From a phage, in assembly GCA_017062915.1 (NCBI GenBank), contig GCA_017062915.1_4331.1: a stretch of DNA of 40,644 nt. One strand, given 5' to 3'. The notes under the pieces are model-generated. The model ran no database searches. It was given only the letters and a program-made list of their open reading frames with translations, and was not told where the DNA came from. Both the position numbers and the translations under genes were made by a program. This document shows, in pieces, positions 7,895 through 36,239 of this stretch (positions are counted from its first letter, which is position 1; each line of letters opens with the position of its first letter).

Positions 7895-8182
7895 CTAACT
7901 ATAATAGTTTGCTATTAGGTCGTCAACCTCTTCTTTTGTTCCTACTACAAAAACATTTGCGTCGCGTTTACGAAGCCGTTTGTGTTCCCGCAACTGATGG
8001 GCCTCCGGTTCCGTGTTTTCATCCTTCTTCACCTCTACAAACCATATCACCCCTCCCGGAAGGACAACCAACAGGTCAGGCGCTCCGTTTCTACCCTCGT
8101 ACGACAACTTACGAACGAGGCCCCCAAGGGCCTCGAATTGCTCTTTTGCGTATTTCTGAATCTTGCCCTCAGGCGTACACAT
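7895..8182 (-). CDS. VRR-NUC domain nuclease
   Basis: 95 aa; GAPDLLVVLPGGVIWFVEVKK matches the PD-(D/E)XK-like VRR-NUC core (D..E-V-K). Confidence 0.6.
   Translation of the reverse strand: MCTPEGKIQKYAKEQFEALGGLVRKLSYEGRNGAPDLLVVLPGGVIWFVEVKKDENTEPEAHQLREHKRLRKRDANVFVVGTKEEVDDLIANYYS
7898..7926 (-). promoter_or_regulatory. sigma70-type promoter (TTGACG-N17-TATAGT) with AATAG-N4-CTATT palindrome in the spacer
   Basis: Reverse complement reads GTTGACG, 17-nt spacer, TATAGT; leader shares CACCAACAATA with the promoter at 36211-36239. Confidence 0.55.
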
Positions 8183-8384
8183 CTACACACCCCTCACGTT
8201 TCGTATGCTCAATCCCGCAGCGCGGACAGATTCGGCGGTCTTCTTCATAGAACCAGTAAATTTTCATTCCAGCACCCACAGATAAATTGTGATTAACATA
8301 CACAATACGGCAACCATCATGCCATATTGGCCATCGTGGCAGTAAACACCGGCGGCGAATCCCGCCAGTGCTGTAACAATCAGT

Positions 8385-10634
8385 TTACTTAGCATAACGC
8401 TTCATCTCCGCACCTTCCGCTACCAAAGGGAAGCCCCCGGCCCAGTCTGGTAATTCGCACATCAACCGCTCAAGTTCATCCACATTGTATTCAGGCGAAT
8501 CCGGTGTCTCGCAGATAATCTCATCATGTACGTGAAGTACAATCGGGTAGCCGTTTGCTTCAACGTTCAGCAGGGCATTAGCTAGCAAATCACGGCACAG
8601 CGCCTGAGTGCAGTTTTCCACCAGTTTACCGGAGTAGGTGTACTGGAACCCCCACTGACGGGTTAGCTGATTTTCGCCCTGGTACTTGATGCGCACGTTA
8701 GTAGACACCTTCCCGTCTTCGTCTGTCTCTTTTGACACGCTCAATCCTACGCCCGGGTATGACATTACACGACCCGACGGCAACGTCATGCGCAACCACC
8801 AACCCGCTACCTTGTTGCCGTTGTTGTCTGTTTCTACGTTGCGGGAAAACTTAACGCCACGTGGCCCTGCGGTGAACTCTTTCCCTGGATTACGGATTGC
8901 TGCCATAGCTGCGTCTTCAATATCGCGCCAGAAAGCTACAGTCTCCGGGTGAGACTCCCGCCACATACGCTTGATCGCGTCACAAGTACGCCACACTTTC
9001 TTATCAAGAATATATGATGGTCGGTCATCTTTTTCACCAGGACGCGGCGGGCGCTTCGCCTCCTGAATACGCGCCCACTCGTAGCCTCGCGCGGTGGCGG
9101 CCCAGATATGGTCCGGGAAAGTTCCGTCCATTGTTTTAGCCATATCGATGAGGTTTAGGCCGAGGTTCTTGGCGAACTGAACGAAAGCGCCGACGCCACC
9201 CGCATAGCCCAATCCCAACTCACATGCTTTACCAATCTGGCGCAGGTCGCTACGGCTTTCGAGAATGTAATTAGGATCCATACCAAACATCTTACCCGCC
9301 GTTACACAATAAATATCGAGTCCAGCACGGAAAGTATCTAGCGCAGTTTCTTCTCCAGCCAGCCATGCCAGACCACGCCCCTCAACGTTAGAGTAGTCGG
9401 CAACAACAAATTTGTGCCCGGCTTCCGGGATGATGCAGCTACGCACCGTCGATGCCGTTAGCTTGGCTACATCAAATCTTCGATGGGCACGCCCTTTAAG
9501 CAACAGGTCAATCCCATAGGACAATGGGTGTGTTACTCTCCACCAGTCCTTCTCTGACATCCAGTCGTAACGTACTTTCTTCTTTTTATTCTTCGGGTCG
9601 TCGTGATAGTACCCGCGCGCCAGGTTCTGCGGCTGGAAGCCTTTGCCCGCGAATCGTAGCGTACGCTTAGCCCCACCGTACTGTATGCAACCACGGCGAC
9701 GGTCGTCAGAAGAACGGCCCAACAGCAGTGGGTTATATTTAGTTGATGCAGTTGAAGCAGCCCCGAGGCGCATTTCGATAATCGTGCGCGCATCGTCCGG
9801 TAAATCGTCGTCCGCCAGCAGGTCATGAAGTGTTGACTTCTGCGCATTGTGAATGCGGTGAGCGGGGGCCAGTTCACGCAGAATTGGCAGGAAGTCTTTA
9901 CCGGTTAACGAGCCGCCGTATTTGCGCCGGGCTTCTTCCTGTAACTGTGCCTTGTGCTTCTCTACGGCTTCAATCGCAGCCTCTGCCAGCGCAACGTCAA
10001 CCTTAAACCCACGGTCGTTGATTAACTGGTCCAGTTCCAGTACACGGTCCTCGAACTCGGAGTTACCCCACCGCGGCAGCTTATGGAAGACTTCGCGCAT
10101 CGCGGTGATGTCACTCACAGCGTACTTGATGAACAACGCCCACTCATCCGGGTGCGTATCGGCGGTGTAGCGGCGGATTTTATAGTTCTTCGGCGTAGGT
10201 TTTGAGAAACGCTGAATCAGCGCCTTGCCGCGTTTGTCTTTCGCATTGTCGGCGGATACACCGAGAACTTCACACAGCGCATCAAGTGAACCCGGCAGCG
10301 CGTGACGAAACGCCCAAATCATCGTATCAATGGTGTTGCTTACAGGGATATCAAAGTCCCAGCAGTTTTTCATGATGAGCCTATCGAAAAGTCCACCGTT
10401 ATGCCACACCATCTTAATGCGACTGTTCGGTTTCACCAGACGGCGTAACGCGCGGTGTAAATCTCCTGGCATATCGCTGCCGTCTGTGCAATCCCATACC
10501 TGCACAGGCTCGTCGTCAAAGGCATATGTACAGATAAGCACTTCGGTAGTCGGGTGTTCAGCATAAGCGTAAGAACCGACTTTCTTCAAATCAGCTTCGG
10601 AGAATGTTTCAAAGTCTAAGAACAGATAACTCAT
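8385..10634 (-). CDS. family A DNA polymerase with 3'-5' exonuclease domain
   Basis: N-terminal exo motif LFLDFETFS; Pol A motif A (VVADYSNVEGR), motif B (RQIGKACELGLGYAGG), motif C (VHDEII). Confidence 0.85.
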   Translation of the reverse strand: MSYLFLDFETFSEADLKKVGSYAYAEHPTTEVLICTYAFDDEPVQVWDCTDGSDMPGDLHRALRRLVKPNSRIKMVWHNGGLFDRLIMKNCWDFDIPVSNTIDTMIWAFRHALPGSLDALCEVLGVSADNAKDKRGKALIQRFSKPTPKNYKIRRYTADTHPDEWALFIKYAVSDITAMREVFHKLPRWGNSEFEDRVLELDQLINDRGFKVDVALAEAAIEAVEKHKAQLQEEARRKYGGSLTGKDFLPILRELAPAHRIHNAQKSTLHDLLADDDLPDDARTIIEMRLGAASTASTKYNPLLLGRSSDDRRRGCIQYGGAKRTLRFAGKGFQPQNLARGYYHDDPKNKKKKVRYDWMSEKDWWRVTHPLSYGIDLLLKGRAHRRFDVAKLTASTVRSCIIPEAGHKFVVADYSNVEGRGLAWLAGEETALDTFRAGLDIYCVTAGKMFGMDPNYILESRSDLRQIGKACELGLGYAGGVGAFVQFAKNLGLNLIDMAKTMDGTFPDHIWAATARGYEWARIQEAKRPPRPGEKDDRPSYILDKKVWRTCDAIKRMWRESHPETVAFWRDIEDAAMAAIRNPGKEFTAGPRGVKFSRNVETDNNGNKVAGWWLRMTLPSGRVMSYPGVGLSVSKETDEDGKVSTNVRIKYQGENQLTRQWGFQYTYSGKLVENCTQALCRDLLANALLNVEANGYPIVLHVHDEIICETPDSPEYNVDELERLMCELPDWAGGFPLVAEGAEMKRYAK

Positions 10635-10651
10635 TATTTTCGACCCTTAGT

Positions 10652-10673
10652 AAAAAGGCCCAATAAAGGGCCT
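10652..10673 (-). terminator. rho-independent terminator between the SSB-like gene and the polymerase gene
   Basis: On the minus strand: hairpin AGGCCC-TTTATT-GGGCCT followed by TTTTTAC. Confidence 0.5.
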
Positions 10674-10693
10674 TAATTAAACAGATTCAGATA

Positions 10694-11323
10694 TTAGCCA
10701 CGGCGACGACGTTCACGGCGCGGTGCTTCATCTTCTTCGTCGTCTTCCAGGTCATTGACGCTTGCTGCAACTTTAGAACCGCCAAACGCTTTACCTTCAC
10801 CTACGTATTTAATCGCCAGCAGGTTAACACCGAGAACTTTATACTTCTGGCTAAACCAGACTTCCACGCTTACGTTAGCAACGCAGCCGCTGTAAACCTG
10901 TTCGCCTTCAATCTGTTCACCTTCGACGTTGAAGTCAGGCTCTACCTGAGTTTCACCTTTTTTAGAGGTTACAATCAGAGGCTGTTTCTGCGCCTTCGCT
11001 TTGAAGTAGAAACCTTCCGGGAAGTCTTCAAACGGATTGTCGCGCTCAGCGATGTCCTTAATCGCGCATTTATCCATGTGCTTGCCTTCGCCGTAGTTTG
11101 ACTTCATCCACTTCCCTGCAGCGGCAGCCCCCAGTGCTTCTTCTACAACCGCGTAAACGGTGTCGTACATTTCGTCGATTTGCGCATGGTCAGACGGCAG
11201 AATGATAGTCGCGCTGTACTGGCCTTTAGTAATAGAGCCATCGTCGTTTTCACGGTCTTTTTCGCGTTCAAATACGTTAACCCATGCAGTGTTTACTTTA
11301 CGCAGATTCAGCTTAATACCCAT
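10694..11323 (-). CDS. ssDNA-binding protein-like (T7 gp2.5-like) replication protein
   Basis: 209 aa, RBS GAGGAA; acidic C-terminal tail DLEDDEEDE; first gene after a strong promoter and followed by a terminator (high-expression context); family assignment from memory only. Confidence 0.4.
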   Translation of the reverse strand: MGIKLNLRKVNTAWVNVFEREKDRENDDGSITKGQYSATIILPSDHAQIDEMYDTVYAVVEEALGAAAAGKWMKSNYGEGKHMDKCAIKDIAERDNPFEDFPEGFYFKAKAQKQPLIVTSKKGETQVEPDFNVEGEQIEGEQVYSGCVANVSVEVWFSQKYKVLGVNLLAIKYVGEGKAFGGSKVAASVNDLEDDEEDEAPRRERRRRG

Positions 11324-11380
11324 TTCCAGATTCCTCAGTTTTTTCAGTTTACTCCGGGAAGCTGCCCGGCCAGTGATTTA

Positions 11381-11409
11381 ACTATAATAGTTCGCTATTC
11401 AGGTGTCAA
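11381..11409 (-). promoter_or_regulatory. sigma70-type promoter (TTGACA-N17-TATAGT) with AATAG-N4-CTATT palindrome in the spacer
   Basis: Perfect -35 TTGACA, 17-nt spacer, -10 TATAGT on the minus strand; leader hairpin CCGGG-CAGCTT-CCCGG before RBS GAGGAA. Confidence 0.6.
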
Positions 11410-11413
11410 CACT

Positions 11414-12655
11414 TTATTCTAAATCTTCTTCACTAACCTGATTCCACTCAGGACGTTTGTCGTCCGCCGTTGCGACGCATGGCGCCCCCGGCTTACGGGT
11501 AATGAAGTCTTTCAGTTCTTCTTCCGATATAACTTTAACAGCTTCGGTCGGCGTCATTAGGACGACTTTATTCAGCATAGTGCCGTATTTCTCAGCCACC
11601 TTGTCGGCGTCTTTCCATGCACGATTACCCGGACGACCTTCTACCAGCTTGTACCCCGGAACTTTCTTACCAGAATACAACGCGGCGGACATCGCTTTTT
11701 CGACCTTGTCGATGTGCTGGCGCAACAACGGCAACTTCTCATACTCGGCGACTAGTTGCTCAGGTGTCAGTTCCAGTGCAAAGTCGTCTTCCAGTTCTTC
11801 TGCCAGTACCGAATTAACCGTCTTCGTTCTGGCGGCGCACTGTTCCGAGAACCTACACCACTGGCAACCGTCCACCGACGGCTTGAAGTCCGACGCTTTC
11901 AGGTTCTTCTTACCCCGGAAATACGCATCGAGTGCTAACAGTGCGCGTTTCTGCGCGAACTTAGCGAACAGTTCCAGACCTTCAACCGAAATATCCCACT
12001 CTGACGCACCACCAGCGTACGGCTGGAAGATGACCAGACGAACAGTTGTTATGTTATAACGTCTCTTGAGTCTGCGATAAACACCGAGAGCGTAAAGCAT
12101 AAGCTGCTTGTTTTCTTTCGCTTCGACACGATGCCGTCCTGTTTTCAGGTCGCCGATTACGAGCATATGCTCGTCGGTGTTTGCCAGTTCCTGAACGGCA
12201 ACAAGGTCGGCGGTCCCGAACGTCTCAACGCCTTCGTAGCCCGGATGCAGCACCTCAGTAAGATTGACACGCATCTCCAGCTTGGCGTAAGTCGCTACGT
12301 CAATAATCGCTTTGCAGTAGTCTGTGTACTTGCGCACCTGTTCAATCATGTCCGCCGTAATCAGTACCGCACCTTTCATCGGGCTGATTAGTGCCTTAAT
12401 CTGGCCTTTACCTTCATCCAGCACGTAAGCACCGACTTCACGCTCTAACGGCAGCGCAGTGCCCTTGATGTACTGGTTAAGGTGCATCTCCGCTATGGTG
12501 TGACATGCGGTCCCTGTAACGGCAGCTTTTCCAGATGCGTTAGGAATGTCTTTTTCACAGGCCAGTGACGCTGCACAACTTAGCCATTTCTTAGCACCAG
12601 ACGGAGACAGTAGTGCATGAACATCGTTATTGCCTCCGCGTTCTTTTAAAATCAT
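11414..12655 (-). CDS. PD-(D/E)XK family exonuclease with C-terminal Cys cluster (Cas4/RecB-like)
   Basis: Cys cluster CQWCRF..C; start placed at the ATG that overlaps the upstream stop (ATGA) rather than the track start. Confidence 0.6.
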   Translation of the reverse strand: MILKERGGNNDVHALLSPSGAKKWLSCAASLACEKDIPNASGKAAVTGTACHTIAEMHLNQYIKGTALPLEREVGAYVLDEGKGQIKALISPMKGAVLITADMIEQVRKYTDYCKAIIDVATYAKLEMRVNLTEVLHPGYEGVETFGTADLVAVQELANTDEHMLVIGDLKTGRHRVEAKENKQLMLYALGVYRRLKRRYNITTVRLVIFQPYAGGASEWDISVEGLELFAKFAQKRALLALDAYFRGKKNLKASDFKPSVDGCQWCRFSEQCAARTKTVNSVLAEELEDDFALELTPEQLVAEYEKLPLLRQHIDKVEKAMSAALYSGKKVPGYKLVEGRPGNRAWKDADKVAEKYGTMLNKVVLMTPTEAVKVISEEELKDFITRKPGAPCVATADDKRPEWNQVSEEDLE

Positions 12656-12924
12656 ACCCTGACCTCCCACTGGTCGATTAAATGCCGAGTCCTGTGGTCA
12701 CAATGCATCGCCCAACTATACATAGACTCGAAGACATAAAAGTCACTTTTAACGAAAGTCGTGCGCTTAATCTGCGACACGTGACGGCCTATATCTTTAG
12801 GGTGCGGCACTTTGCCTAAGTACGCCATCTCTTCCATCTGGTGCGAGCCAGACGGCGCACGTAACAGCCATAGCGCCTCTGTGCTATCCCGCCTGTCTAC
12901 GGCGCGGTAGAGTTGGTAAATCAT
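12652..12924 (-). CDS. hypothetical protein
   Basis: 90-aa ORF coupled to the exonuclease gene. Confidence 0.45.
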   Translation of the reverse strand: MIYQLYRAVDRRDSTEALWLLRAPSGSHQMEEMAYLGKVPHPKDIGRHVSQIKRTTFVKSDFYVFESMYSWAMHCDHRTRHLIDQWEVRV

Positions 12925-12967
12925 AATTCCGACCCTCAGTTAAAGCGGCCCGAAGGCCGCGGGATAG

Positions 12968-13489
12968 TTATTCTTCTTCGAAATACTTGTTCTTGATTGC
13001 TGTCAGGCGCTCCAGATACTCAGCCAGGTCTTCGTCTTTAATCGCTGCAATCTTCATCTTCTTACCGGTAAACTCTTCCAGCAGTTCGTCAGAATCGTCG
13101 CACGCGGCATCGCTTGGGCCTTCGTTAATCGCATCGTCGATAGCCTGAATCTGGTCGCGCAGAGACTGATAATTGACTTCTTCCTTCTCTTCTTCCGGTT
13201 CTGGCGTCTGCTCCTCTACTTTAGCTTTACGTGGTTTGCGTTTCGGCTTCTCTTCTTCTGCCGGTTTAGTGTCGACGATGTCTTCACCTTCGACCGGGAT
13301 TTCTTTCGCCTTCTCGACTTCTTCAAGTGCTTTAGCCAGCTCTTTTTTAACTGTTTCTACCCCCGTGACCGCAACATCAATGGTTAATTCACCTACTGAT
13401 TTGCCGTTTTGTGGTTTCACGCTATTCGCAGCAATCAGTTCATGTGCAACTACGAAACGTTCCAGTAATTTTAAAAATTGTTCTAACAT
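12968..13489 (-). CDS. acidic hypothetical protein (replication module)
   Basis: 173 aa, RBS AGGAGAA; highly charged central region (EEEKPKRKPRKAKVEEQTPEPEEEKEE). Confidence 0.5.
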   Translation of the reverse strand: MLEQFLKLLERFVVAHELIAANSVKPQNGKSVGELTIDVAVTGVETVKKELAKALEEVEKAKEIPVEGEDIVDTKPAEEEKPKRKPRKAKVEEQTPEPEEEKEEVNYQSLRDQIQAIDDAINEGPSDAACDDSDELLEEFTGKKMKIAAIKDEDLAEYLERLTAIKNKYFEEE

Positions 13490-13504
13490 TATTTGTTCTC
13501 CTGT

Positions 13505-13666
13505 TTATTTTGACGCTTGAATCATTGCTTGCCAGATAAAATAAACGGCGTCTGATAGTTGCTCTTCATCGACTTCATCCTCGATGCCAGGGATGTAGTA
13601 TATCAGTTGGTCTATGCCGGCTTTTAACATTTCTTCTGTTGGTTGCATGTCTACGCTGAACTTCAT
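13505..13666 (-). CDS. small acidic protein (53 aa), hypothetical
   Basis: First ORF after the leftward promoter; RBS AGGAG in the leader module CAAACGAGAGGAGAGACAA shared with the promoter at 18728. Confidence 0.35.
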   Translation of the reverse strand: MKFSVDMQPTEEMLKAGIDQLIYYIPGIEDEVDEEQLSDAVYFIWQAMIQASK

Positions 13667-13696
13667 TTTGTCTCTCCTCTCGTTTGGTATGGGCTA

Positions 13697-13725
13697 ACTA
13701 TAATAGCGAACTATTCACATGTCAA
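13697..13725 (-). promoter_or_regulatory. sigma70-type leftward promoter (TTGACA-N17-TATAGT) with AATAG-N4-CTATT palindrome
   Basis: Perfect -35 and 17-nt spacer on the minus strand; part of a divergent control region with the HTH gene. Confidence 0.6.
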
Positions 13726-13730
13726 TGGGC

Positions 13731-13758
13731 TTTTCTAAAATAATTAATATGGTACTAT
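13731..13758 (+). promoter_or_regulatory. rightward promoter for the HTH regulator gene (weak -35, -10 TACTAT)
   Basis: TACTATTCA -10 block as in the early-class promoters; half-site AATAT-N4-CTATT with one mismatch. Confidence 0.4.
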
Positions 13759-13789
13759 TCACATATCAACTGACTAAGGAGTAATTGAC

Positions 13790-14005
13790 ATGCAACCATC
13801 TGAACTAGGAATCCGTGTAGAGCAACGCCGTAAAGAACTCGGCATCTCCCAGCGCCGGCTGGCTGTCCTGACTGGCGTTTCCCAGGGTGCGATTAACCAG
13901 CTGGCTCTCGGTGTAACTCAGGACGTCCGCCCGGCAACGCTGTTTAAACTGGCGGAAGTGCTGGAAGTAGACGCCAAGTGGCTGGCGTTCGGTGAAGGGG
14001 CTTAA
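13790..14005 (+). CDS. XRE/Cro-type helix-turn-helix transcriptional regulator
   Basis: 71 aa; HTH signature ISQRRLAVLTGVSQGAINQLALG; RBS AAGGAG; single-gene unit ended by a terminator. Confidence 0.7.
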   Translation: MQPSELGIRVEQRRKELGISQRRLAVLTGVSQGAINQLALGVTQDVRPATLFKLAEVLEVDAKWLAFGEGA

Positions 14006-14022: not shown

Positions 14023-16290
14023 CTATTCCAAATCTTCCTCCGTAACCACCAGCATTTCATTCGGTTCGTATATTGTCTTCGGAATCTTGTTATCCGTTAT
14101 TCTGGTGTTCAGCCTGTAACGGCCTGGAATTATCTGATTGTTTTCGTCGGTCCCTGGCACAAGATACCCCGCCTCAACCATTTTCTTAATCTTCCCACGT
14201 TCTATGGCTTCTTTGGAGTTAAACGCCTTCGCGTTGGGGTCGGACTGTGCGAGTTTATTCGCTGCAGCTGCCGTGATACCTTCGTTGCCGTTGTAAGTTC
14301 CTTCTGCCAGTTCGAACGCTGCCAGTATCGTGACCTCTGAACTGTTGACGGCGTTCTCTACGGTTTTACGTACGTTTTCTTTACCTTCCTTTGTCAGCCC
14401 TTCTTCCCGCTCTTTCTCCTCGTCAGTCTTGAATGGTTCGAAGCCCCACGGCATCAACACAAGCGCCTTGTGTGGTTCAGGCAGGTCAAGGTTTACGATT
14501 GTGCCGTATTCCTCGGTGCTGCCCAGGAACTCAACCGCGCGGTACTCTTTCGGCGGTGGGGCTTCGCGGAACTGCACAGACTCCAGCGCCATACCAACCG
14601 TCTTCTGTTGAGGGCCATGCTTAAATTTCGAGTGGTATACGTTTATCTGACGGTCGGTCGCGCGTTCAATTGTCAGTTCCACGTCGACGCCCGCATACAG
14701 CGCCCCACTACCACGGGCTTTCTTTCCGCCCTTCGGGGTATGATGGACAACGCCCACCGCAGCTTTAGTCGCGTCACGTACTTCTTTCAGGATGGCGATA
14801 ACTTTACCCATGCCGATTGCCGTCGATGAACTGTTCTCGTCGAACTTATCAATCGTCAGCGCCAACGTCTGGTTAAGGGTATCGAACGCAACCATGCCAA
14901 TTGGCTCGTCGCCAGCAGTTTCACGCATCAGCTTAATCAGGCTTTTCAGTTTGCCGACTTCACCCATATCGATAACGTGGATGTAGTTCTTCCCCTCCTC
15001 GCCATATTTAGCCGCGAGTGCGTCGATACGTGTGCGTGTAGCTGCGCCACCCTCACCGTCGATATAGAAATGGTGGCAACGCTGGGTATCGGCCCCCGCA
15101 AACCGGTATCCAGCGGCGCTCAGGTACATCATCCCCAGCGTATAGAAGGATTTGTACGTGCCGGATTCCCCAACAATATCCCATATGCAATCCGAGGGCA
15201 TGTACCCCTCAACGACGAAATCAGCCTTTACCGGTTCCGGTAACTCGTCCTCCTCTGAGTCCTCGTCGTCTTCCAGGTCATCGAGGCTGCATTCGACCGT
15301 CTCACGCGCGCCCCAGCCGATGGCCTCAGCGACTTCACTGAACGGCAGCCCGGTCGCATCGCACGCATATTTCCACACCTCTTTCGGCGACATACTCTCT
15401 GTTGCCGTAATGTCGGTGTCGTGAATCATTGTTACGTTAGGCGCGGCGTAACCCTCTCGCGGAAAGCACAGCAGGAAATCATCCGGGCGCGGTGTCGGGT
15501 CGCTGTAGTTCTCGGCGTGCTCTGGTGTGGCTGGCATCTTAAGGCCGCGCGACGTCATAACACCGCCATACTCGAACGCAAGTGCCTCAAACGCATCTGT
15601 AAACGCGGTGCGCAGTTCTTCCGGTATCTGGTAGTCAGATGCGCTGCTCACCTCGTGATCCGGGATGCCTTCCAGTAGCTCATCCGGGTCAATCAGGTCG
15701 TTGCGGCGCGACCAGATAACCTGAGAGCCGACCGGCGGCAGGTACATAGGCTGCGAAAGAGTGAACCCACTGCGGTCTGCACCCATGCCTTTGAAGAAGT
15801 GCTCCAGCAATCCGTGGCGGACGCGGATGATGTCACCACCTTCTACCGGGCGGCCTAGTGGCGTGACGACGCGAAAGCGCGGCGACTCGTCGGTATGCGA
15901 TGCCGTGGTGTAAATGCACATGGCTTTACGACTGCGCTTAACCAGGCGCACAGCTTCCTGATACTCTTCCGGCGTCGCACTGTCGAAGTCCAGATAAGCG
16001 AGCGACGATTTGCTTACAGACGCGTCGCAGCGATAGAAGAAGCCTTTACGCGCCTGCTTAAAGTCACTGGTTTCCGGGTCTTTTACGGTGCTGTGCGTTG
16101 AGTCACACGCCGCGGTGATATAACCGGGAGCGGTCTTCGGGTTAACCCCATCGCGAACGGCATCGAGTGGCTGAATTAGCTCTTTCAGGTCGTCCAGTGT
16201 TGCCGTGTGGGTTGTTCTGACGTTTATATCCTTTTTCTCTGCCCGCGCGTTGCGACGAGACCACGAGTAGGATAAAATTACATCGGACAT
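14023..16290 (-). CDS. primase-polymerase (AEP-like) / helicase fusion protein
   Basis: N-terminal AEP-type motifs (AYLDFDS, TASHTDES); C-terminal P-loop ATPase with Walker A GESGTYKS; start set at an internal ATG with RBS AAGGA (the track ORF extends to 16332 from a GTG). Confidence 0.7.
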   Translation of the reverse strand: MSDVILSYSWSRRNARAEKKDINVRTTHTATLDDLKELIQPLDAVRDGVNPKTAPGYITAACDSTHSTVKDPETSDFKQARKGFFYRCDASVSKSSLAYLDFDSATPEEYQEAVRLVKRSRKAMCIYTTASHTDESPRFRVVTPLGRPVEGGDIIRVRHGLLEHFFKGMGADRSGFTLSQPMYLPPVGSQVIWSRRNDLIDPDELLEGIPDHEVSSASDYQIPEELRTAFTDAFEALAFEYGGVMTSRGLKMPATPEHAENYSDPTPRPDDFLLCFPREGYAAPNVTMIHDTDITATESMSPKEVWKYACDATGLPFSEVAEAIGWGARETVECSLDDLEDDEDSEEDELPEPVKADFVVEGYMPSDCIWDIVGESGTYKSFYTLGMMYLSAAGYRFAGADTQRCHHFYIDGEGGAATRTRIDALAAKYGEEGKNYIHVIDMGEVGKLKSLIKLMRETAGDEPIGMVAFDTLNQTLALTIDKFDENSSSTAIGMGKVIAILKEVRDATKAAVGVVHHTPKGGKKARGSGALYAGVDVELTIERATDRQINVYHSKFKHGPQQKTVGMALESVQFREAPPPKEYRAVEFLGSTEEYGTIVNLDLPEPHKALVLMPWGFEPFKTDEEKEREEGLTKEGKENVRKTVENAVNSSEVTILAAFELAEGTYNGNEGITAAAANKLAQSDPNAKAFNSKEAIERGKIKKMVEAGYLVPGTDENNQIIPGRYRLNTRITDNKIPKTIYEPNEMLVVTEEDLE

Positions 16291-16348
16291 GTTGTATATT
16301 CCTTCAGCAAGTAATTTAGCCTCGGCGTTCACGCGTCGGGGCTTTCTT

Positions 16349-16639
16349 TTATCTTTTGGCCAGACATTCCATCAAATGCGCGTACTTACGGTAATAATCT
16401 ACGACAATCTCATCGCCGAAATACTGATAAATGTACGCTAAGTGGTCAGAGACACCGATGGAGGCCGACATTGTGCTGAGTCTTCGGAGACTAATCAACT
16501 GCAATTCTTCTGTAACGCAAAACGGTGAATAAGAGTCCAGCTTACAAGAAACGTTAAAGCACAACGCGTACTCGCCTTGCGCTAAATAAACCATATAAGC
16601 ATTGTCGTTCTCTTTATCGTGGAAAATTACACCTTTCAT
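16349..16639 (-). CDS. hypothetical protein
   Basis: 96-aa ORF coupled to the AlpA-like gene. Confidence 0.45.
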   Translation of the reverse strand: MKGVIFHDKENDNAYMVYLAQGEYALCFNVSCKLDSYSPFCVTEELQLISLRRLSTMSASIGVSDHLAYIYQYFGDEIVVDYYRKYAHLMECLAKR

Positions 16640-16806
16640 TTCACGTTCTCCTTAATCCACGCTTCAACTTTATTACGGTCAAATGTTCCCGGTAAACGGC
16701 GGCCCATTACTTTAACGCTGCAATCAGGAAACTTTCCACTCTTAATCCAGTTATTAATCGTCTGGCGGGTGACGCCAATTAATTCTGCGACTTCATTGAT
16801 AGTCAT
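16636..16806 (-). CDS. AlpA/excisionase-like helix-turn-helix DNA-binding protein
   Basis: MTINEVAELIGVTRQTINNWIKSGKFP is the MerR-type winged-helix pattern of AlpA/Xis regulators; start at ATG with RBS GGAG; the track's N-terminal extension (TTG start) is rejected. Confidence 0.6.
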   Translation of the reverse strand: MTINEVAELIGVTRQTINNWIKSGKFPDCSVKVMGRRLPGTFDRNKVEAWIKENVK

Positions 16807-16846
16807 TTCACGCTCTCCTGTGTAAGATGTATCGAAGTATAAGGCG

Positions 16847-16886: not shown

Positions 16887-16911
16887 TAAGATACAAAAGA
16901 TGCTACTGGTA

Positions 16912-17219: not shown

Positions 17220-17248
17220 TTGCACGCCCCAACATAATAGGATACTAT
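17220..17248 (+). promoter_or_regulatory. early-class promoter TTGCAC-N17-TACTAT with AATAG-N4-CTATT palindrome
   Basis: Near-identical module at 18728, 27927(-) and 36211(-); leader TTATCGAAACGAGACAGAGGAG supplies the RBS. Confidence 0.55.
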
Positions 17249-17282
17249 TCACTTATCGAAACGAGACAGAGGAGTGAAGGTT

Positions 17283-18727: not shown

Positions 18728-18756
18728 TTGCACACTGAGATATAATAGGCTACTAT
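18728..18756 (+). promoter_or_regulatory. early-class promoter TTGCAC-N17-TACTAT with AATAG-N4-CTATT palindrome
   Basis: Same module as 17220-17248; leader CACAAACGAGAGGAGAGACAAGG. Confidence 0.55.
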
Positions 18757-18796
18757 TCATTTACACAAACGAGAGGAGAGACAAGGTGAAAGAGTT

Positions 18797-20681: not shown

Positions 20682-20703
20682 ATCTATTTTCTGCAATGAC
20701 TAG

Positions 20704-20732
20704 TTGACTATTACTCTGACACCAATTATATT
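20704..20732 (+). promoter_or_regulatory. sigma70-type promoter TTGACT-N17-TATATT for the 20766-22626 operon
   Basis: Good -35 and -10 with 17-nt spacer, about 35 nt upstream of the first RBS. Confidence 0.45.
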
Positions 20733-26088: not shown

Positions 26089-26110
26089 AGCCCCGAAAGG
26101 GGCTTTCTTA
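26089..26110 (+). terminator. rho-independent terminator
   Basis: AGCCCC-GAAA-GGGGCT followed by TTCTTAT. Confidence 0.55.
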
Positions 26111-26147
26111 TAGTATGCTATTAACTTTAGCGCCACAGGGTTTATCT

Positions 26148-27652: not shown

Positions 27653-27656
27653 TAAA

Positions 27657-27682
27657 AGGCCCCTTACGGGGCCTTAGTTTTA
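27657..27682. terminator. bidirectional rho-independent terminator
   Basis: AGGCCCC-TTAC-GGGGCCT flanked by T-rich sequence on both strands; between convergent genes. Confidence 0.6.
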
Positions 27683-27892
27683 TTCATGCGTCGCTGCTCT
27701 AAAATTAAGTTCTTCACGAGGGATAAAACCTCTATCAGTTTTTACGTAACAAGTTGTGTAACTGTACATTACCTCTCTGCCTGTGATATCTCCGTAGTTC
27801 TCACACTCGTGTTTATCTAAGCTGCGTACACCAACAGCAGTTACCAGTAAAACCGCCGATACCGTCAATACCGCTTTAATTAAGTCTTTCAT
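27680..27892 (-). CDS. small secreted protein (signal peptide plus about 45-aa two-Cys domain), accessory gene
   Basis: N-terminal MKDLIKAVLTVSAVLLVTAVGVRS signal-like segment; own early-class promoter; reverse orientation inside the forward late block. Confidence 0.5.
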   Translation of the reverse strand: MKDLIKAVLTVSAVLLVTAVGVRSLDKHECENYGDITGREVMYSYTTCYVKTDRGFIPREELNFRAATHE

Positions 27893-27926
27893 CTTTAAAT
27901 TCCTTATCTCTCGTTTCGATAACTGA

Positions 27927-27955
27927 ATAGTACCCTATTATATTGGTGTCTGCAA
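27927..27955 (-). promoter_or_regulatory. early-class promoter TTGCAG-N17-TACTAT with AATAG-N4-CTATT palindrome
   Basis: Same module and leader (TTATCGAAACGAGAGATAAGGA) as the promoter at 17220. Confidence 0.55.
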
Positions 27956-28021
27956 ACTATTTGTTTACGTATTACAGTTATTCCTCCTAATTGTAAATGT
28001 TGGAATAAACTATTCGAATAG

Positions 28022-28259
28022 TTGACTTTTCACTAAAAATATGCTAAGCTCCACCTGAGCTTGTGAAGTATGAACAAGCGACCGCGGCGCGGGCAGGTAA
28101 CGGAGCGGGACGTAAGTCATGAGTGTAGTTACGCTGACGCGTTCGGAAGGGCCATACTCTATTGCTTGTGTAAAAAGTAACTGGTTTACTGAGATTACGC
28201 CGTTTCTATGTTTAAATGATAAGGACTAGCGCCCCGCTTTAAGGCGGGGCTTTACTTAT
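28022..28259 (+). ncRNA. candidate promoter-proximal structured RNA element, copy 2
   Basis: TTGACT-N17-TAAGCT promoter (28022-28050), conserved core shared with copy 1, intrinsic terminator GCCCCGC-TTTAAG-GCGGGGC plus T-tract at 28231-28259. Confidence 0.4.
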
Positions 28260-30676: not shown

Positions 30677-30679
30677 TTT

Positions 30680-31192: not shown

Positions 31193-31194
31193 AA

Positions 31195-32985: not shown

Positions 32986-32987
32986 AT

Positions 32988-34154
32988 ATGGCTACAACTC
33001 CTTTTAAGGGCGCGAATACCGCGCAATTCTATGTGGCGGAAACTACCCCGGGCGTGACACCGACTTCCCCGGTATGGTCGCCGTTGCGTAACACTGGCGG
33101 CGTTCCCGCGGTAACCCGCGACGCGCTGACCTCCAACGAACTGGACGGCAGCCGTGAAACCACGTCTATCCGCACCGGCAACAAACAGGTAACAGGTGAA
33201 TACGCCATTGAGCTTAGCTCAAAAAGTCAGGATGATTTCCTCGCCGGTGCGATGACATCTACGTGGCAGGCTGGCGTCGAGATTACTGGCGCGGAAATTA
33301 CTGTAGCCCCGGTTGGTAAAACGTTCACCCGCGCAACCGGTAGCTTCATTACCGACGGCGTTGAAGTTGGCGACCTGATTGCGTTCACCGGACTGACGGG
33401 CGATAACACTAAACCGTTCATCGTCACCGAAGTTTCCGCTCTTGTTGTAACAGGTGCGGGAGTTCAGCACACACTGACCGCAGAAACCGTAACTACCGAT
33501 GCAAAAACCGGCGACAAGCTGGAAACTGGTAACGCGTGTAAGACGTTCTCTATCCTGACCTGGTTCAAAGGCCAGTGCGGAAACCCTGACGCGTACATGC
33601 TGACCAAAGGTGTAGAAATCTCTGGTTTCACCATCGAGCAGGCGGTTAATGCGATGGTCACGGGCAGCTTCCCGTTCATCGGCCTGAGCCAGGAGATTCT
33701 TACGGCCCCTCCGGCTGGTTCCGACTTCTCTCAGGTTACGTTTACCGATGAGCCGTTCTCTTCGGTTGATGTGTCAGTGTTCGACGGTACGTCGCCGTTG
33801 CGTTGCGACACGCTGACCATTACCAACGACAACGGTGCTTCCGCCCAGTTCGAACTCGGCAACAGTAACGTAGCGTTCGTTGAACGAGGCCGCGCGGCAA
33901 ACACCTTCTCCATCTCCGGCAAGCTGTACGACATGGCTATGATTCAGAAGTTTATCAACGAGCAACAGGTAGAGATTAACTCTATTCTGGCGGGGGTAAA
34001 CGGGGCTATGTCATTCAGCCTGAAACGTGCCGAGTTGACCGCAGTTACACCGGAGATTGGCGGGCCAGAGTCAATCACTCAGTCTATTGAAGGCCAGGCA
34101 ACCGGCAACCAGTATCAGTCGTCTATCGTAATTCAGCGCATCACCTACGCATAA
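32988..34154 (+). CDS. major tail (tube) protein
   Basis: About 389 aa, RBS AAGAGG 8 nt before the ATG (MATTPFKG); last gene of the head-tail block, followed by a strong terminator. Confidence 0.55.
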   Translation: MATTPFKGANTAQFYVAETTPGVTPTSPVWSPLRNTGGVPAVTRDALTSNELDGSRETTSIRTGNKQVTGEYAIELSSKSQDDFLAGAMTSTWQAGVEITGAEITVAPVGKTFTRATGSFITDGVEVGDLIAFTGLTGDNTKPFIVTEVSALVVTGAGVQHTLTAETVTTDAKTGDKLETGNACKTFSILTWFKGQCGNPDAYMLTKGVEISGFTIEQAVNAMVTGSFPFIGLSQEILTAPPAGSDFSQVTFTDEPFSSVDVSVFDGTSPLRCDTLTITNDNGASAQFELGNSNVAFVERGRAANTFSISGKLYDMAMIQKFINEQQVEINSILAGVNGAMSFSLKRAELTAVTPEIGGPESITQSIEGQATGNQYQSSIVIQRITYA

Positions 34155-34159
34155 AACTA

Positions 34160-34184
34160 AGGCCCCTTTCGGGGCCTTTTTCTT
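34160..34184. terminator. bidirectional rho-independent terminator
   Basis: AGGCCCC-TTTC-GGGGCCT with T-runs on both strands; separates the major tail gene from the convergent accessory cassette. Confidence 0.65.
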
Positions 34185-34593
34185 ATTCATCAATATTATT
34201 CCTGTACTCTCGTAACTTCTCCAGACTTTCTATAGCCTCGTCTAAGTCCGTGCCTGTGTCCTTGTGCCCGCGCAACCCCATACATAACAGCTTTTTCAAT
34301 GCGTGTTGTAGCGCCGGGTCGCGGATGTCGAAAGCACGTAGCACATCATAGACGTCAACAGTCATTGTGCTGCCGTGTGTATTTGTCATGGTTCTGTCGT
34401 ATTTATTGACTTCCTTAAAGCGTGCGATACCTGATTCGGTAATGTTACCAATACAGAAGTAGGAACTATACTTAGTAGAGTACATCATCACATCTCCGTT
34501 GGGCGTGACTACTCCGTCATACACGACGCCTACTTTGAACCCGTTGCATTCCGCGTAAGGACTTACTGCGGTACATTCGTATTTTGAAGTCAT
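34183..34593 (-). CDS. hypothetical protein with DUF3310-like C-terminal region
   Basis: 136 aa; C-terminal DVYDVLRAF...ALQHALKKLL..GLRG.KD...DLDEAIESL resembles the DUF3310 phage pattern (from memory). Confidence 0.4.
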   Translation of the reverse strand: MTSKYECTAVSPYAECNGFKVGVVYDGVVTPNGDVMMYSTKYSSYFCIGNITESGIARFKEVNKYDRTMTNTHGSTMTVDVYDVLRAFDIRDPALQHALKKLLCMGLRGHKDTGTDLDEAIESLEKLREYRNNIDE

Positions 34594-34823
34594 AAATCGC
34601 TCTCCTCTGTAAGAATAATAACCGCAGAAATAGCTACGGCGGCTACATATAAAAGACGTATGCCCGTTAAGCTAGCCTGTGTGGCCTCTTCGTACAAACT
34701 AAAGAACACTGACGAGTCCATAGAGATGAAGCACAAGGCTAACGCCAGAATTAACACGGAGAAAGCCAGCACAAAGAAAATAGCAAGCGGCATTATGGCG
34801 AAAATCCACAATAACTTAATCAT
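34590..34823 (-). CDS. small two-helix membrane protein
   Basis: 77 aa; two long hydrophobic segments; ATGA coupling on both sides. Confidence 0.45.
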   Translation of the reverse strand: MIKLLWIFAIMPLAIFFVLAFSVLILALALCFISMDSSVFFSLYEEATQASLTGIRLLYVAAVAISAVIILTEESDL

Positions 34824-35950
34824 CCCAGCATCTCCGGTGAAATAGTTAAACGAGCGACCTCGCCGTATTCGGCGCTATAAGTAATTACATTTGCACTCCG
34901 GCCTGACATCCATCCGCCGCGGGAAGCGTAGGCATCTTTAGCGGCCAGGGTGCGGTGTTGTTCAACAATCATGTTACGGCTTTCAATAATTTTCTGGTGG
35001 TGGAGGTGGCCCACATGCGCGTAGCTGTAGACGCTCTCGCCGAACGCTTTGCGGAACTTGGCAATCATAACAGGCTCGATTGCGTCGAAGCGTGCCTTAT
35101 GCCCGTGGTGGAAGAACAGCGTCGTTTTGCCGTGTTGCACCATCTTGTACACATCTGGCGACGTATCGACGAACACACGTGGCTCATTGTCGTACAGTGT
35201 GCTGAACATCTCCGCCAGCCAAATCATCCCACTTTCGTCGTGGTTTCCCTGAACTATAAGCAAGCGAACAGTTTTATGTTTAACCAGCGCCATATCGACA
35301 ACACGGCGTACCATGCGAATCATATAGCGAACAAGTTTCTGATAGCGCGTGTCGGCGTCAAGGACATGACCACTCGCTGGCGTAACGGCGTCAAGACTGT
35401 CGAAGTGCGCCAGGTCCCCCAGAAGATTAATAACCCCCGTACCGGCATCCGGTGCTTTCTGGAACGCAGCGTCAAACCAGCGGGAGAACAAGTCTTCCGC
35501 GATTTTCATATCCCAGTCGTCGCCGCTCTCATCGGCCCAGGCTAACATTCCGAGATGGAAATCGGACACGGTGTACAGGTTAAGCAGCTTATCGTCACGT
35601 TTAGCCATGGCGGCCTTCACCGGAGCTACCGGGGTAATCTCAGACTTCATGCCTTCGATCACGGCTTTCATCAACTCGACCTGACGTTCGGCATCTGTAT
35701 CAGTCTTAACCCACTGCAACTTGGTGTTGCCGAACTCGTCAACCAGAGACGACGTACCCTTAATCTTGTAGCCGTCTGGTACAAGGTGGCTTACGTCACG
35801 CCCGTGACCCACGCCTTTCTTGGCCAGCTTCGCTTTACGGATGCGGATAACGCGGTCTGAGATGCCGTATTTACGGGCGATATCGATATTCTTCATCCCG
35901 GCGTTCAATTCTTCCTGTAATTGCTCGTCGGTTATTTTCTTCTGGGCCAT
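34820..35950 (-). CDS. HTH-domain protein fused to a calcineurin-like metallophosphoesterase
   Basis: Start at ATG with RBS GAGGAAG; N-terminal HTH (IDIARKYGISDRVIRIRKAK); complete metallophosphoesterase motif set DFH, GDLAHFD, GNHDE, HHGH, GHLHH. Confidence 0.65.
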   Translation of the reverse strand: MAQKKITDEQLQEELNAGMKNIDIARKYGISDRVIRIRKAKLAKKGVGHGRDVSHLVPDGYKIKGTSSLVDEFGNTKLQWVKTDTDAERQVELMKAVIEGMKSEITPVAPVKAAMAKRDDKLLNLYTVSDFHLGMLAWADESGDDWDMKIAEDLFSRWFDAAFQKAPDAGTGVINLLGDLAHFDSLDAVTPASGHVLDADTRYQKLVRYMIRMVRRVVDMALVKHKTVRLLIVQGNHDESGMIWLAEMFSTLYDNEPRVFVDTSPDVYKMVQHGKTTLFFHHGHKARFDAIEPVMIAKFRKAFGESVYSYAHVGHLHHQKIIESRNMIVEQHRTLAAKDAYASRGGWMSGRSANVITYSAEYGEVARLTISPEMLG

Positions 35951-35988
35951 GCTTACTTCCTCGTGTTTAGGATTTGTCTTATAGTAGC

Positions 35989-36180
35989 CTACTTCTCTTT
36001 CACGTTCGAGTTGCAAGCCCAGATTAAAATGAATACCCACGGCAACAAAACCCATCCGAGAAATAAGTTAGCCATGAATATCGCCAGCTTTGCTTTATGG
36101 TTACGGAAGTAGGCAACTAAAAAAGGCGCAAAGTACGCGAGCAGTGCAAACAGGATTAAGGAAATTGGTAAACTGGACAT
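35989..36180 (-). CDS. superinfection-immunity-like small membrane protein
   Basis: 63 aa, two TM helices; pattern YFAPFLVAYFRNHKAKLAIFMANLFLGW...LIWA matches the small Imm-like superinfection-immunity family (from memory); first gene after an early-class promoter. Confidence 0.5.
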   Translation of the reverse strand: MSSLPISLILFALLAYFAPFLVAYFRNHKAKLAIFMANLFLGWVLLPWVFILIWACNSNVKEK

Positions 36181-36210
36181 TTTAAAACCCTCTATTGTTG
36201 GTGTAAGTGA

Positions 36211-36239
36211 ATAGTACGCTATTATATTGGGGTGCGCAA
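36211..36239 (-). promoter_or_regulatory. early-class promoter TTGCGC-N17-TACTAT with AATAG-N4-CTATT palindrome
   Basis: Same module as 17220, 18728 and 27927; drives the reverse-oriented cassette 34183-36180. Confidence 0.55.

What the first reader, a model, noticed from the sequence alone, without database searches (positions are those of the whole stretch)
7898..36239. Eight promoter-leader modules share a 14-bp palindrome AATAG-N4-CTATT, suggesting a common operator
Promoters at about 7898(-), 11381(-), 13697(-), 13731(+), 17220(+), 18728(+), 27927(-) and 36211(-) all carry TATAATAG-N4-CTATTCA. In the rightward early-class promoters (TTGCAC-like -35, -10 TACTAT) the palindrome overlaps the -10; in the leftward replication promoters (TTGACA-N17-TATAGT) it lies in the spacer. 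Leaders are also reused (AAACGAGAGGAGAGACAA; TTATCGAAACGAGA; CACCAACAATA). A dyad between -35 and -10 is the classic position for a repressor operator. The only obvious candidate regulator is the Cro/XRE-like gene at 13790-14005, which sits in a divergent control region with two copies of the motif.
Basis: seen in the sequence. Interest (0 to 1): 0.6.

Follow-up and report, generated by a model that had tools for sequence, protein, structure and literature searches.

The report
Cro-like repressor operators on phage promoters
A 14-bp palindrome on seven or eight host-type promoters of this virulent E. coli phage is most likely the binding site of the phage's own small 434-Cro-like repressor; this is an ordinary kind of switch, and papers on related phages had already listed the motif as 'phage promoters'.

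Summary
AATAG-N4-CTATT occurs 7 times exactly (0.02 expected), plus one imperfect copy at 13746. All copies sit on sigma-70-like promoters of a Kagunavirus (Guernseyvirinae).

There are two promoter classes:
- TTGACA-N17-TATAGT, with the dyad in the spacer.
- TTGCAC-N17-TACTAT, with the dyad over the -10.

Across more than 150 unique related promoter sequences, the two half-sites are more conserved than the -35/-10 hexamers, while N4 varies. Jerseyviruses keep the same dyad. Pantoea phage AH01 carries AATAC-N4-GTATT at orthologous promoters (5 exact, 0.04 expected). That is a symmetric swap in both half-sites, as expected for a dimeric phage-encoded binder and not for RNA polymerase.

The 71-aa gene at 13790-14005 is the best candidate:
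- Its best sequence and fold match is phage 434 Cro, which binds 14-bp operators.
- It is the only recognisable DNA-binding protein conserved in all five genomes compared.
- It always sits in the divergent region that holds two sites.

The AlpA-like gene is missing from three clades that keep dyad promoters. No phage RNA polymerase is encoded.

Two genome papers already list these sites as PHIRE 'phage promoters', without an operator reading. Binding is untested.

The parts
7903..7916 (.). Operator-like dyad AATAGTTTGCTATT in the spacer of the leftward promoter 7898-7926 (TTGACG-N17-TATAGT). It lies in the 3' end of the endonuclease-like ORF 7895-8182 and upstream of 7673-7864 and the SNF2-type helicase.
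11386..11399 (.). Dyad AATAGTTCGCTATT in the spacer of the leftward promoter 11381-11409 (TTGACA-N17-TATAGT), upstream of the ssDNA-binding gene 10694-11323 and the DNA polymerase.
13702..13715 (.). Dyad AATAGCGAACTATT (here called O1) in the spacer of the leftward promoter 13697-13725 (TTGACA-N17-TATAGT). This promoter starts the replication-gene operon (13505-13666 and onward).
13746..13759 (.). Imperfect dyad AATATGGTACTATT (here called O2, 1 mismatch) over the -10 TACTAT (13753-13758) of the rightward promoter of the XRE gene. Its -35 is poor in this phage. It lies 44 bp, centre to centre, from O1.
13790..14005 (+). 71-aa HTH_3 / 434-Cro-like protein, the proposed repressor.
   Evidence: Pfam HTH_3 E 2.3e-12. 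PDB sequence best hit 434 Cro, E 2.1e-6, over nearly the whole length. Foldseek best hit 2cro, TM 0.73/0.79. Conserved in all five genomes compared.
17236..17249 (.). Dyad AATAGGATACTATT over the -10 of the rightward promoter 17220-17248 (TTGCAC-N17-TACTAT), upstream of small genes of unknown function (17274 onward).
18744..18757 (.). Dyad AATAGGCTACTATT over the -10 of the rightward promoter 18728-18756 (TTGCAC-N17-TACTAT), upstream of 18797 onward.
27926..27939 (.). Dyad over the -10 of the leftward promoter 27927-27955 (TTGCAG-N17-TACTAT), upstream of the 70-aa ORF 27680-27892 inside the structural region.
36210..36223 (.). Dyad over the -10 of the leftward promoter 36211-36239 (TTGCGC-N17-TACTAT), upstream of the superinfection-immunity-like gene 35989-36180 and the exonuclease 34820-36055.
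20699..20712 (.). One-mismatch dyad ACTAGTTGACTATT over the -35 of TTGACT-N17-TATATT (20704-20732). Conserved in Kagunavirus; the Jerseyvirus version is AATAGTTGACTAGT. A possible weak operator.
26109..26122 (.). One-mismatch dyad TATAGTATGCTATT just after a terminator-like hairpin and before the Mu-F-like head gene. The sequence is identical in Salmonella phage wksl3. Role unknown.
28017..28030 (.). One-mismatch dyad AATAGTTGACTTTT abutting or overlapping the -35 of the TTGACT-N17-TAAGCT promoter of the second non-coding RNA-like module.

Best explanation
The 14-bp dyad AATAG-N4-CTATT is the operator of a phage-encoded homodimeric repressor, most likely the 71-aa 434-Cro-like protein made from 13790-14005.

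Proposed mechanism (inferred):
- Host sigma-70 RNA polymerase starts transcription at two kinds of promoter. The small 'early' genes use TTGCAC-N17-TACTAT and the replication genes use TTGACA-N17-TATAGT.
- The Cro-like protein accumulates and binds the dyads. These lie inside the core promoters, with the centre near -12.5 or -18.5, so binding excludes polymerase.
- This turns down the early and replication regulon.
- The weaker, imperfect site on the protein's own -10 gives negative autoregulation.
- There is no cI partner, so this is a Cro-only shut-off or dosage circuit of a virulent phage, not an immunity switch.

Shown: the sites, their positions, their conservation, the symmetric change in a related phage, and the identity of the protein family. 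Inferred: binding, repression and timing.
For: - Enrichment: 7 exact sites against 0.02 expected; 11 sites with up to 1 mismatch against about 1 expected, all between the predicted genes or at a gene start.
- Conservation: in 114 + 53 unique Kagunavirus promoter sequences the ten half-site positions are near 2 bits. That is higher than the -35/-10 hexamers, and N4 is near 0 bits.
- Same dyad in Jerseyvirus, where the XRE protein is 49% identical.
- The dyad occupies two registers and both orientations relative to the hexamers.
- Pantoea phage AH01 has AATAC-N4-GTATT 5 times exactly (0.04 expected), plus one-mismatch copies, at promoters including the divergent region, the XRE promoter and the positions orthologous to window 17236, 27926 and 36210.
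- Half-site position 5 tracks the XRE recognition helix across loci:
  - VSQGAINQL: G 323, C 1
  - VSQSLITHL: G 82, C 0
  - MTQGGIGHI: C 18, G 4
- Salmonella phages of two clades carry different motifs on the same host, which argues against a host factor.
- XRE protein: Pfam HTH_3; best PDB match 434 Cro, also 71 aa; fold match 2cro/3cro. From established knowledge, 434 operators are 14-bp dyads with conserved outer bases and a free centre.
- An unrelated GC-rich temperate contig (L066) has AATAC-N4-GTATT three times around its cI(S24)/cro genes. Its cI helix, VSQGTIGHI, resembles the AH01 XRE helix, MTQGGIGHI.
- The XRE gene always lies beside a pair of sites in a divergent control region.
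- The AlpA-like gene is absent from ZS, Smarc3 and AH01.
- No RNA polymerase or sigma factor was found.
Against: - There are no binding, transcription-start or expression data for these sites.
- The helix-to-base correlation rests on only about 4-6 independent clades and is not clean. The FSQGRVSHI clade mixes C and G. ZS-like phages use a consistently asymmetric AATAC-N4-CTAAT. Single P_L operators in several metagenomic clades mix G and C halves.
- The flanks of the dyad in Kagunavirus are asymmetric and conserved in one orientation. A plain homodimer site does not explain this.
- A second protein, the 173-aa ORF 12968-13489 (phrog_3127, unknown function), is also conserved in all five genomes and cannot be excluded as the binder.
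- The XRE promoter in this window has a poor -35.
- The one published time course for a Kagunavirus is too coarse to show shut-off (PMC12645636).
Confidence: 0.65

Rival explanations
1. The dyad is a real protein-binding site, but the binder is not the XRE protein. It could be another phage protein, such as the conserved 173-aa ORF 12968-13489 or a small early protein, or a host transcription factor.
For: ORF 12968-13489 is, with XRE, the only small non-structural protein found in all five genomes, and it has no known function. The correlation between the XRE helix and the motif is imperfect.
Against: The 173-aa protein has no recognisable DNA-binding domain. XRE is a 434-Cro homologue whose family binds exactly this site geometry. 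Salmonella phages of two clades on one host species have different motifs, and AH01 changed its motif across the genome, which argues against a conserved host factor. An unrelated phage with a similar HTH helix has the same dyad at its cI/cro genes.
Confidence: 0.15
2. The motif is a phage-specific promoter element, as labelled by PHIRE in published genome reports. It would be recognised by RNA polymerase itself or by polymerase with a phage-encoded specificity or activator factor, so it acts positively and is not an operator.
For: All copies are at promoters. The extended motif contains TATAAT and TACTAT. Two papers list the sites as phage promoters (PMC9825357; PMC7203180 Table S4). The class with TTGCAC/TACTAT hexamers is sub-consensus and might need help.
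Against: No phage RNA polymerase or sigma factor is encoded. The element is a dyad. It sits at two registers 6 bp apart and in both orientations relative to well-spaced -35/-10 pairs. AH01 changed both half-sites symmetrically while its hexamers still resemble the sigma-70 consensus. A centre at -12.5 or -18.5 with a 17-bp spacer is not a known activator position; from established knowledge, MerR-type activation needs 19-20-bp spacers.
Confidence: 0.1
3. The similarity only reflects copied promoter cassettes (duplication or recombination within the genome). The palindrome has no function of its own.
For: Leaders and flanks are reused between promoters. Phage genomes are mosaic.
Against: N4 and the flanks have diverged while the ten half-site bases stay fixed in more than 150 unique sequences and across genera. 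A passive copy would not turn into a different perfect palindrome in AH01 at five or more loci.
Confidence: 0.04
4. The dyad serves a DNA transaction other than transcription, for example as a replication-initiator, recombination, methylation or restriction-related site.
For: It is palindromic, like many restriction or methylation sites. Several copies lie in the replication gene block.
Against: Every strong copy is placed precisely inside a -35/-10 pair, and none lies within coding sequence away from a promoter. No clustered iteron-like array is present.
Confidence: 0.03

Closest known systems
Phage 434 Cro / cI with operators OR1-3 and OL1-3 (HTH_3 family)
   Same: The protein has the same length (71 aa), with a nearly full-length sequence match (E 2.1e-6) and a fold match (2cro, TM 0.73-0.79). 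The operator is a 14-bp dyad with conserved outer bases and a variable centre, and it overlaps core promoters. There is a divergent two-promoter control region with a stronger and a weaker site. The invariant Gln at the start of helix 3 and the invariant A at operator position 1 parallel the Gln28-A1 contact of 434 (established knowledge, not tested here).
   Different: The half-site is AATAG, not ACAA. There is no cI(S24) partner, integrase or immunity region; the phage group is described as virulent. Operators are not clustered in threes at two promoters but spread as single sites over 7-8 promoters (up to 11 sites) across 28 kb.
P22 c2/Cro and other lambdoid HTH_3 repressors
   Same: The same fold family appears among the structural hits. 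The operators are dyads with a 4-bp centre that, in this family, is not contacted by the protein.
   Different: The P22 operators are 18 bp long with a different sequence, and they form part of a lysis-lysogeny switch.
Temperate-phage repressors with many dispersed sites: Streptomyces phiC31 c repressor with conserved inverted repeats at early promoters, and mycobacteriophage L5 gp71 'stoperators' (recalled knowledge, not tested here)
   Same: One small phage repressor has many copies of one site distributed over the genome, and many of the sites sit on early promoters.
   Different: Those are lysogeny repressors of temperate phages from other protein families. L5 sites are asymmetric and act as roadblocks. 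Here the phage is virulent and the sites sit inside core promoters.
'Phage-specific promoters' predicted by PHIRE in Kagunavirus genome papers (fBC-Eco01, consensus tgAATAGTa-ccTATTat-T; vB_EcoS-Golestan, Table S4)
   Same: These are the same sequences at the same loci, including the imperfect XRE-promoter site and the TATAGTATGCTATT site.
   Different: Those papers treat the motif as a promoter for a phage RNA polymerase, which these phages do not encode. They do not mention the dyad, an operator or a regulator.

Membership tests
434-Cro-type HTH_3 repressor / operator system | The regulator has a Cro/C1-type (HTH_3) five-helix DNA-binding domain. | tested here: met
   Pfam HTH_3 E 2.3e-12, above the curated cut-off. 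The AlphaFold model has 5 helices, pLDDT 81.5. Foldseek best hit is 434 Cro, 2cro. phmmer best PDB hit is 434 Cro, 1zug.
434-Cro-type HTH_3 repressor / operator system | The operator is a short dyad of about 14 bp with conserved outer half-sites and a variable, uncontacted centre. | tested here: met
   AATAG-N4-CTATT occurs 7 times exactly. Half-sites are near 2 bits and N4 near 0 bits in more than 150 unique sequences.
434-Cro-type HTH_3 repressor / operator system | Operators overlap the core promoter so that binding excludes RNA polymerase. | tested here: inconclusive
   By sequence the dyads lie inside TTGACA-N17-TATAGT or over the -10 of TTGCAC-N17-TACTAT. Transcription starts and promoter use have not been mapped.
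434-Cro-type HTH_3 repressor / operator system | Specificity of protein and site co-vary: a change of operator goes with a change of recognition helix. | tested here: inconclusive
   Helices with N/T at residue 6 go with G at half-site position 5 (Kagunavirus, Jerseyvirus, Smarc3), and G at residue 6 goes with C (AH01, L066 cI). There are few independent clades, with mixed or asymmetric cases.
434-Cro-type HTH_3 repressor / operator system | The protein binds the dyad specifically and represses transcription. | not testable with these tools
   This needs EMSA or footprinting and reporter assays.
Lambdoid immunity region (cI-Cro bistable switch) | A cI-type repressor with an S24 peptidase or oligomerisation domain, divergent from cro, plus lysogeny functions. 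| tested here: not met
   Only the 71-aa single-domain protein is present. Its divergent partner is a replication-gene operon. No integrase or cI is annotated in the five annotated relatives examined. The L066 contig shows what a true cI(S24)/cro pair with this dyad looks like.
Phage-RNA-polymerase promoters (the PHIRE label in the literature) | The phage encodes its own RNA polymerase or sigma factor that reads the motif. | tested here: not met
   The ten ORFs scanned (nine of the ten longest, plus the 209-aa ssDNA-binding gene) are a DNA polymerase, helicases, a nuclease, an ssDNA-binding protein and tail or head proteins; two have no Pfam match and by synteny are tail proteins. No RNA polymerase or sigma factor is annotated in relatives. 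The AlpA-like protein matches Sigma70_r4 only at E 0.005, below the cut-off.
MerR-type spacer-binding activators | A dyad in an over-long (19-20 bp) spacer, with a MerR-family regulator. | tested here: not met
   Spacers are 17 bp in every case counted. The only MerR/HTH_17-like gene (16636-16896) is absent from three clades with dyad promoters.

The most novel reading that the evidence does not exclude
A 'Cro-only' global timer in a virulent phage. One 71-aa repressor is made from a self-limited promoter and shuts seven strong operators on all early and replication promoters. It also acts through conserved one-mismatch sites over the -35 of the late and non-coding-RNA promoters (20699, 28017), grading the whole lytic programme. 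The two operators of the control region are kept on one face of the helix (43/44, 55 and 64/65 bp in different clades), which would imply looping or cooperativity.
Probability: 0.25. Interest if true: 0.5.

Novelty: new member of a known kind. Interest (0 to 1): 0.35.

Why it matters
Guernseyvirinae (Kagunavirus, Jerseyvirus) are among the phages most often proposed for therapy and biocontrol of E. coli and Salmonella, and their small genomes are being used as synthetic-biology chassis. Their gene regulation is essentially unstudied.

- The 'repressor' gene is often flagged as a possible sign of a temperate lifestyle.
- The repeated motif has been mislabelled as a promoter for a phage polymerase that does not exist.
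- Reading the motif as the operator set of a Cro-like shut-off repressor gives a simple, testable model of the early-to-late switch.
- It explains why a virulent phage keeps an XRE gene.
- It offers a compact orthogonal repressor/operator pair, with a natural specificity variant in phage AH01.

The mechanism itself is textbook.

Tried and rejected
- AlpA-like / HTH_17 protein (16636-16896) as the binder. Rejected: tblastn finds it only in Kagunavirus and Jerseyvirus, not in ZS, Smarc3 or AH01, which keep dyad promoters.
- Phage RNA polymerase or sigma factor. Rejected: none is encoded (annotated relatives).
- Bidirectional-promoter origin of the palindrome (-10 elements on both strands). Considered because TATAAT is present on the opposite strand of the class-A sites. 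No usable -35 lies at 16-18 bp on that strand for most sites, and there are no downstream genes (read), so it was not pursued.
- Host-factor boxes recalled from memory (ArgR, TrpR, CRP and others). None has this spacing; not tested further.
- De novo repeat search in the distant loci L056, L048 and L051. It was mostly noise; only TTAGC-N2-GCTAA, twice in L056, looked site-like.
The single-sequence model was used instead.
- One literature search with loose terms returned nothing relevant. The published Kagunavirus time course is too coarse to test shut-off.
- Rfam found nothing in the window. The only weak hit in the first non-coding module was chance-level.
Full report
**What the window is.** The region 13000-19000 matches Kagunavirus genomes (Guernseyvirinae) at 89-94% identity, for example 536P11, fFiEco02 and K1G, and more distantly several hundred Salmonella Jerseyvirus genomes. 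The literature consulted describes these as virulent siphoviruses. GC content is 50%.

The gene layout is as follows:
- A leftward replication block (about 6070-13666), plus a convergent leftward helicase-primase block (14023-16896).
- Rightward small genes of unknown function, then lysis and structural genes from about 17274.
- Two short leftward units embedded in the structural region (27680-27892 and 34183-36180).

**The observation.**
- AATAG-N4-CTATT occurs exactly 7 times, against 0.02 expected from dinucleotide shuffles.
- With one mismatch allowed there are 11 sites against about 1 expected. The four extra sites (13746, 20699, 26109, 28017) all lie between the predicted genes or at a gene start.

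The sites fall into two promoter classes:
- Class A (7903, 11386, 13702; minus strand) is TTGAC(A/G)-N17-TATAGT. The dyad begins 4 bp after the -35 and ends on the first base of the -10, so its centre is near -18.5.
- Class B (17236+, 18744+, 27926-, 36210-) is TTGCAC-like-N17-TACTAT. The dyad begins 10 bp after the -35 and its right half lies inside the -10, so its centre is near -12.5.
- The eighth site (13746, AATATGGTACTATT) has the class-B core over the -10 of the XRE gene's own promoter. That promoter has a poor -35 in this phage.

The reused leaders are real.

**Is the dyad more than promoter consensus?**
- I collected loci around homologues of the XRE gene from IMG/VR (63 loci) and from metagenomes (52 loci), plus five complete genomes.
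- In 114 unique class-A and 53 unique class-B Kagunavirus sequences, the ten half-site positions carry close to 2 bits. That is more than the -35 and -10 hexamers, and the four central positions are nearly free.
- The left half-site has no role in sigma-70 recognition in either class.
- The same dyad occupies two registers 6 bp apart, and opposite orientations of its flanks, relative to the hexamers.
- Jerseyviruses carry the same dyad at the orthologous promoters, although their XRE protein is only 49% identical.

**The most informative relative.**
- Pantoea phage AH01 (Guernseyvirinae) has no AATAG-N4-CTATT. Instead it has AATAC-N4-GTATT five times exactly (0.04 expected), plus one-mismatch copies.
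- These lie at the divergent control region, at the XRE promoter and at the first rightward small-gene promoter. They also lie at the two leftward units inside the structural region, at positions orthologous to window 17236, 27926 and 36210.
- Both half-sites have therefore changed together, symmetrically, at many separate promoters. This is the signature of co-evolution with a dimeric sequence-specific protein carried by the phage. It is not a constraint imposed by host RNA polymerase.
- Salmonella phages of the ZS clade use yet another motif (AATAC-N4-CTAAT) on the same host species as the Jerseyviruses, which argues against a host factor.

**Which protein?**
- The 13790-14005 product is an HTH_3 protein. 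Its best match among all solved structures is phage 434 Cro, which is also 71 aa; the match covers nearly the whole length at E 2.1e-6.
- A single-sequence AlphaFold model (pLDDT 81.5, five helices) again finds 434 Cro first (2cro, TM 0.73/0.79), followed by 434 repressor, P22 c2, SinR and C-proteins.
- From established knowledge, 434 Cro binds 14-bp dyads with conserved outer bases and an uncontacted centre, which is the geometry seen here.
- Of 21 small non-structural ORFs, only XRE and an uncharacterised 173-aa protein (12968-13489, phrog_3127) are found in all five complete genomes. The AlpA-like HTH_17 protein is found only in Kagunavirus and Jerseyvirus.
- The XRE gene always sits next to a divergent control region with two sites, one on the leftward replication promoter and a weaker one on its own promoter.

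The base at half-site position 5 follows the recognition helix across loci:

| Recognition helix | Loci | Base at position 5 |
|---|---|---|
| VSQGAINQL | 33 | G 323, C 1 |
| VSQSLITHL | 12 | G 82, C 0 |
| MTQGGIGHI | 2 | C 18, G 4 |
| FSQGRVSHI | 3 | C 8, G 11 |

- The variable helix residue (N/T against G/S) aligns with Gln32 of 434 Cro. Its counterpart in 434 repressor, Gln33, reads operator positions 4-5 (established knowledge; an inference here).
- As an independent check, an unrelated GC-rich temperate contig (L066) has AATAC-N4-GTATT three times around its cI(S24)/cro genes. Its cI helix, VSQGTIGHI, resembles the AH01 XRE helix.

**Caveats.**
- Nothing here shows binding, repression or transcription starts.
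- The helix-to-base correlation rests on a handful of clades and has exceptions: the asymmetric ZS motif and mixed halves in several metagenomic P_L operators.
- The dyad flanks in Kagunavirus are asymmetric and conserved in one orientation regardless of transcription direction. In AH01 they are not conserved. I cannot explain this beyond overlap with the hexamers and common descent.
- The 173-aa protein cannot be excluded as the binder.

**Mechanism proposed (inferred).**
- Host polymerase fires both promoter classes.
- XRE accumulates and occupies the strong operators inside the core promoters. This turns down the small genes of unknown function, the replication genes and the two leftward accessory units.
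- XRE limits its own synthesis through the weaker site at 13746.
- Promoters without a strong dyad would continue. These are TTGACT-N17-TATATT at 20704 and the two TTGACT-N17-TAAGCT promoters at 16912 and 28022.
- There is no cI partner or integrase, so this is not an immunity switch.

**Comparison with what is known.**
- The motif itself has been published twice as PHIRE-predicted 'phage promoters' of Kagunaviruses: fBC-Eco01 with consensus tgAATAGTa-ccTATTat-T (PMC9825357), and vB_EcoS-Golestan Table S4, which lists the same sites including the two imperfect ones (PMC7203180).
- Neither paper mentions the dyad, an operator or the XRE protein. The fBC-Eco01 paper assigns the sites to a phage RNA polymerase, which these phages lack (and the annotations of relatives).
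- In the searchable library I found no experimental work on transcription control in this subfamily, apart from one coarse RNA-seq time course.
- The system is best filed as a new member of the 434-Cro-type repressor/operator kind. It is used in a virulent phage and has single operators spread over 7-8 promoters.

**Verdict.** Novelty is modest and interest is 0.35.

Noticed in passing
window 16912-17068 and 28022-28169 (+ strand): There are two copies of a non-coding module, about 81% identical over roughly 145 nt. Each has a near-consensus promoter TTGACT-N17-TAAGCT followed by a structured RNA of about 100-125 nt: MFE -49.3 kcal/mol, z -3.85, and 4 of 22 consensus pairs with compensatory changes among Kagunavirus variants. 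No Rfam family matches. nhmmer finds one copy in Salmonella phage wksl3 (L002 40718-40634) at the late-gene position. Each copy sits beside a class-B dyad promoter. It could be a small RNA or a cis-acting leader, such as an antitermination element, for the long rightward operons.
   Followed up: partly
window 13702-13759; L038 9904-9972; L048 9886-9963; L068 42398-42476: The centre-to-centre distance between the two operators of the divergent XRE control region is 43/44 bp (Kagunavirus), 55 bp (Jerseyvirus) and 64/65 bp (L048, ZS-like, AH01). The steps are about 10.5 bp, which keeps both sites on the same helical face. This may point to cooperative binding or looping.
   Followed up: partly
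window 20699-20712, 26109-26122, 28017-28030: These are conserved one-mismatch versions of the dyad at other sites between genes or at a gene start. Two overlap the -35 of TTGACT promoters. At 20699 Kagunavirus has ACTAG..CTATT where Jerseyvirus has AATAG..CTAGT. The third is TATAGTATGCTATT, identical in wksl3, lying just after a terminator-like hairpin. They are possible low-affinity operators.
   Followed up: partly
window 17252-17266, 27909-27920, 13678-13685, 18767-18774; L004 99-110 and 3800-3811: The leader motif (T)ATCGAAACGAGA / AAACGAGA lies just downstream of the predicted transcription starts. It is shared between promoter classes and is conserved as far as Serratia phage Smarc3. 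It is more than a Shine-Dalgarno sequence; its function is unknown.
   Followed up: no
window 5901-5944, 27646-27688, 34149-34191: A family of near-identical GC-rich hairpins (AAAAGGCCCCnnnnGGGGCCTTTT) has T-runs or A-runs on both sides. The hairpins lie where convergent transcription units meet, so they look like bidirectional terminators.
   Followed up: no
window 14023-16896 versus L003 4385-7275, L004 36837-39605 and L068 42509-45141: In Kagunavirus and Jerseyvirus the helicase-primase block is inverted relative to the XRE gene (convergent). In ZS-like phages, Smarc3 and AH01 it follows XRE on the same strand. The inverted block is also where the AlpA-like HTH_17 gene occurs.
   Followed up: no
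L066 8174-9300: An unrelated GC-rich (62%) temperate-phage contig has a cI(S24 peptidase)/cro pair with three AATAC-N4-GTATT operators, two of them 25 bp apart on a TTGACT-N17-TATTCT promoter. This suggests the AATA(C/G) half-site is recognised by a wider set of HTH_3 repressors with an SQGxIxH(I/L) helix.
   Followed up: partly
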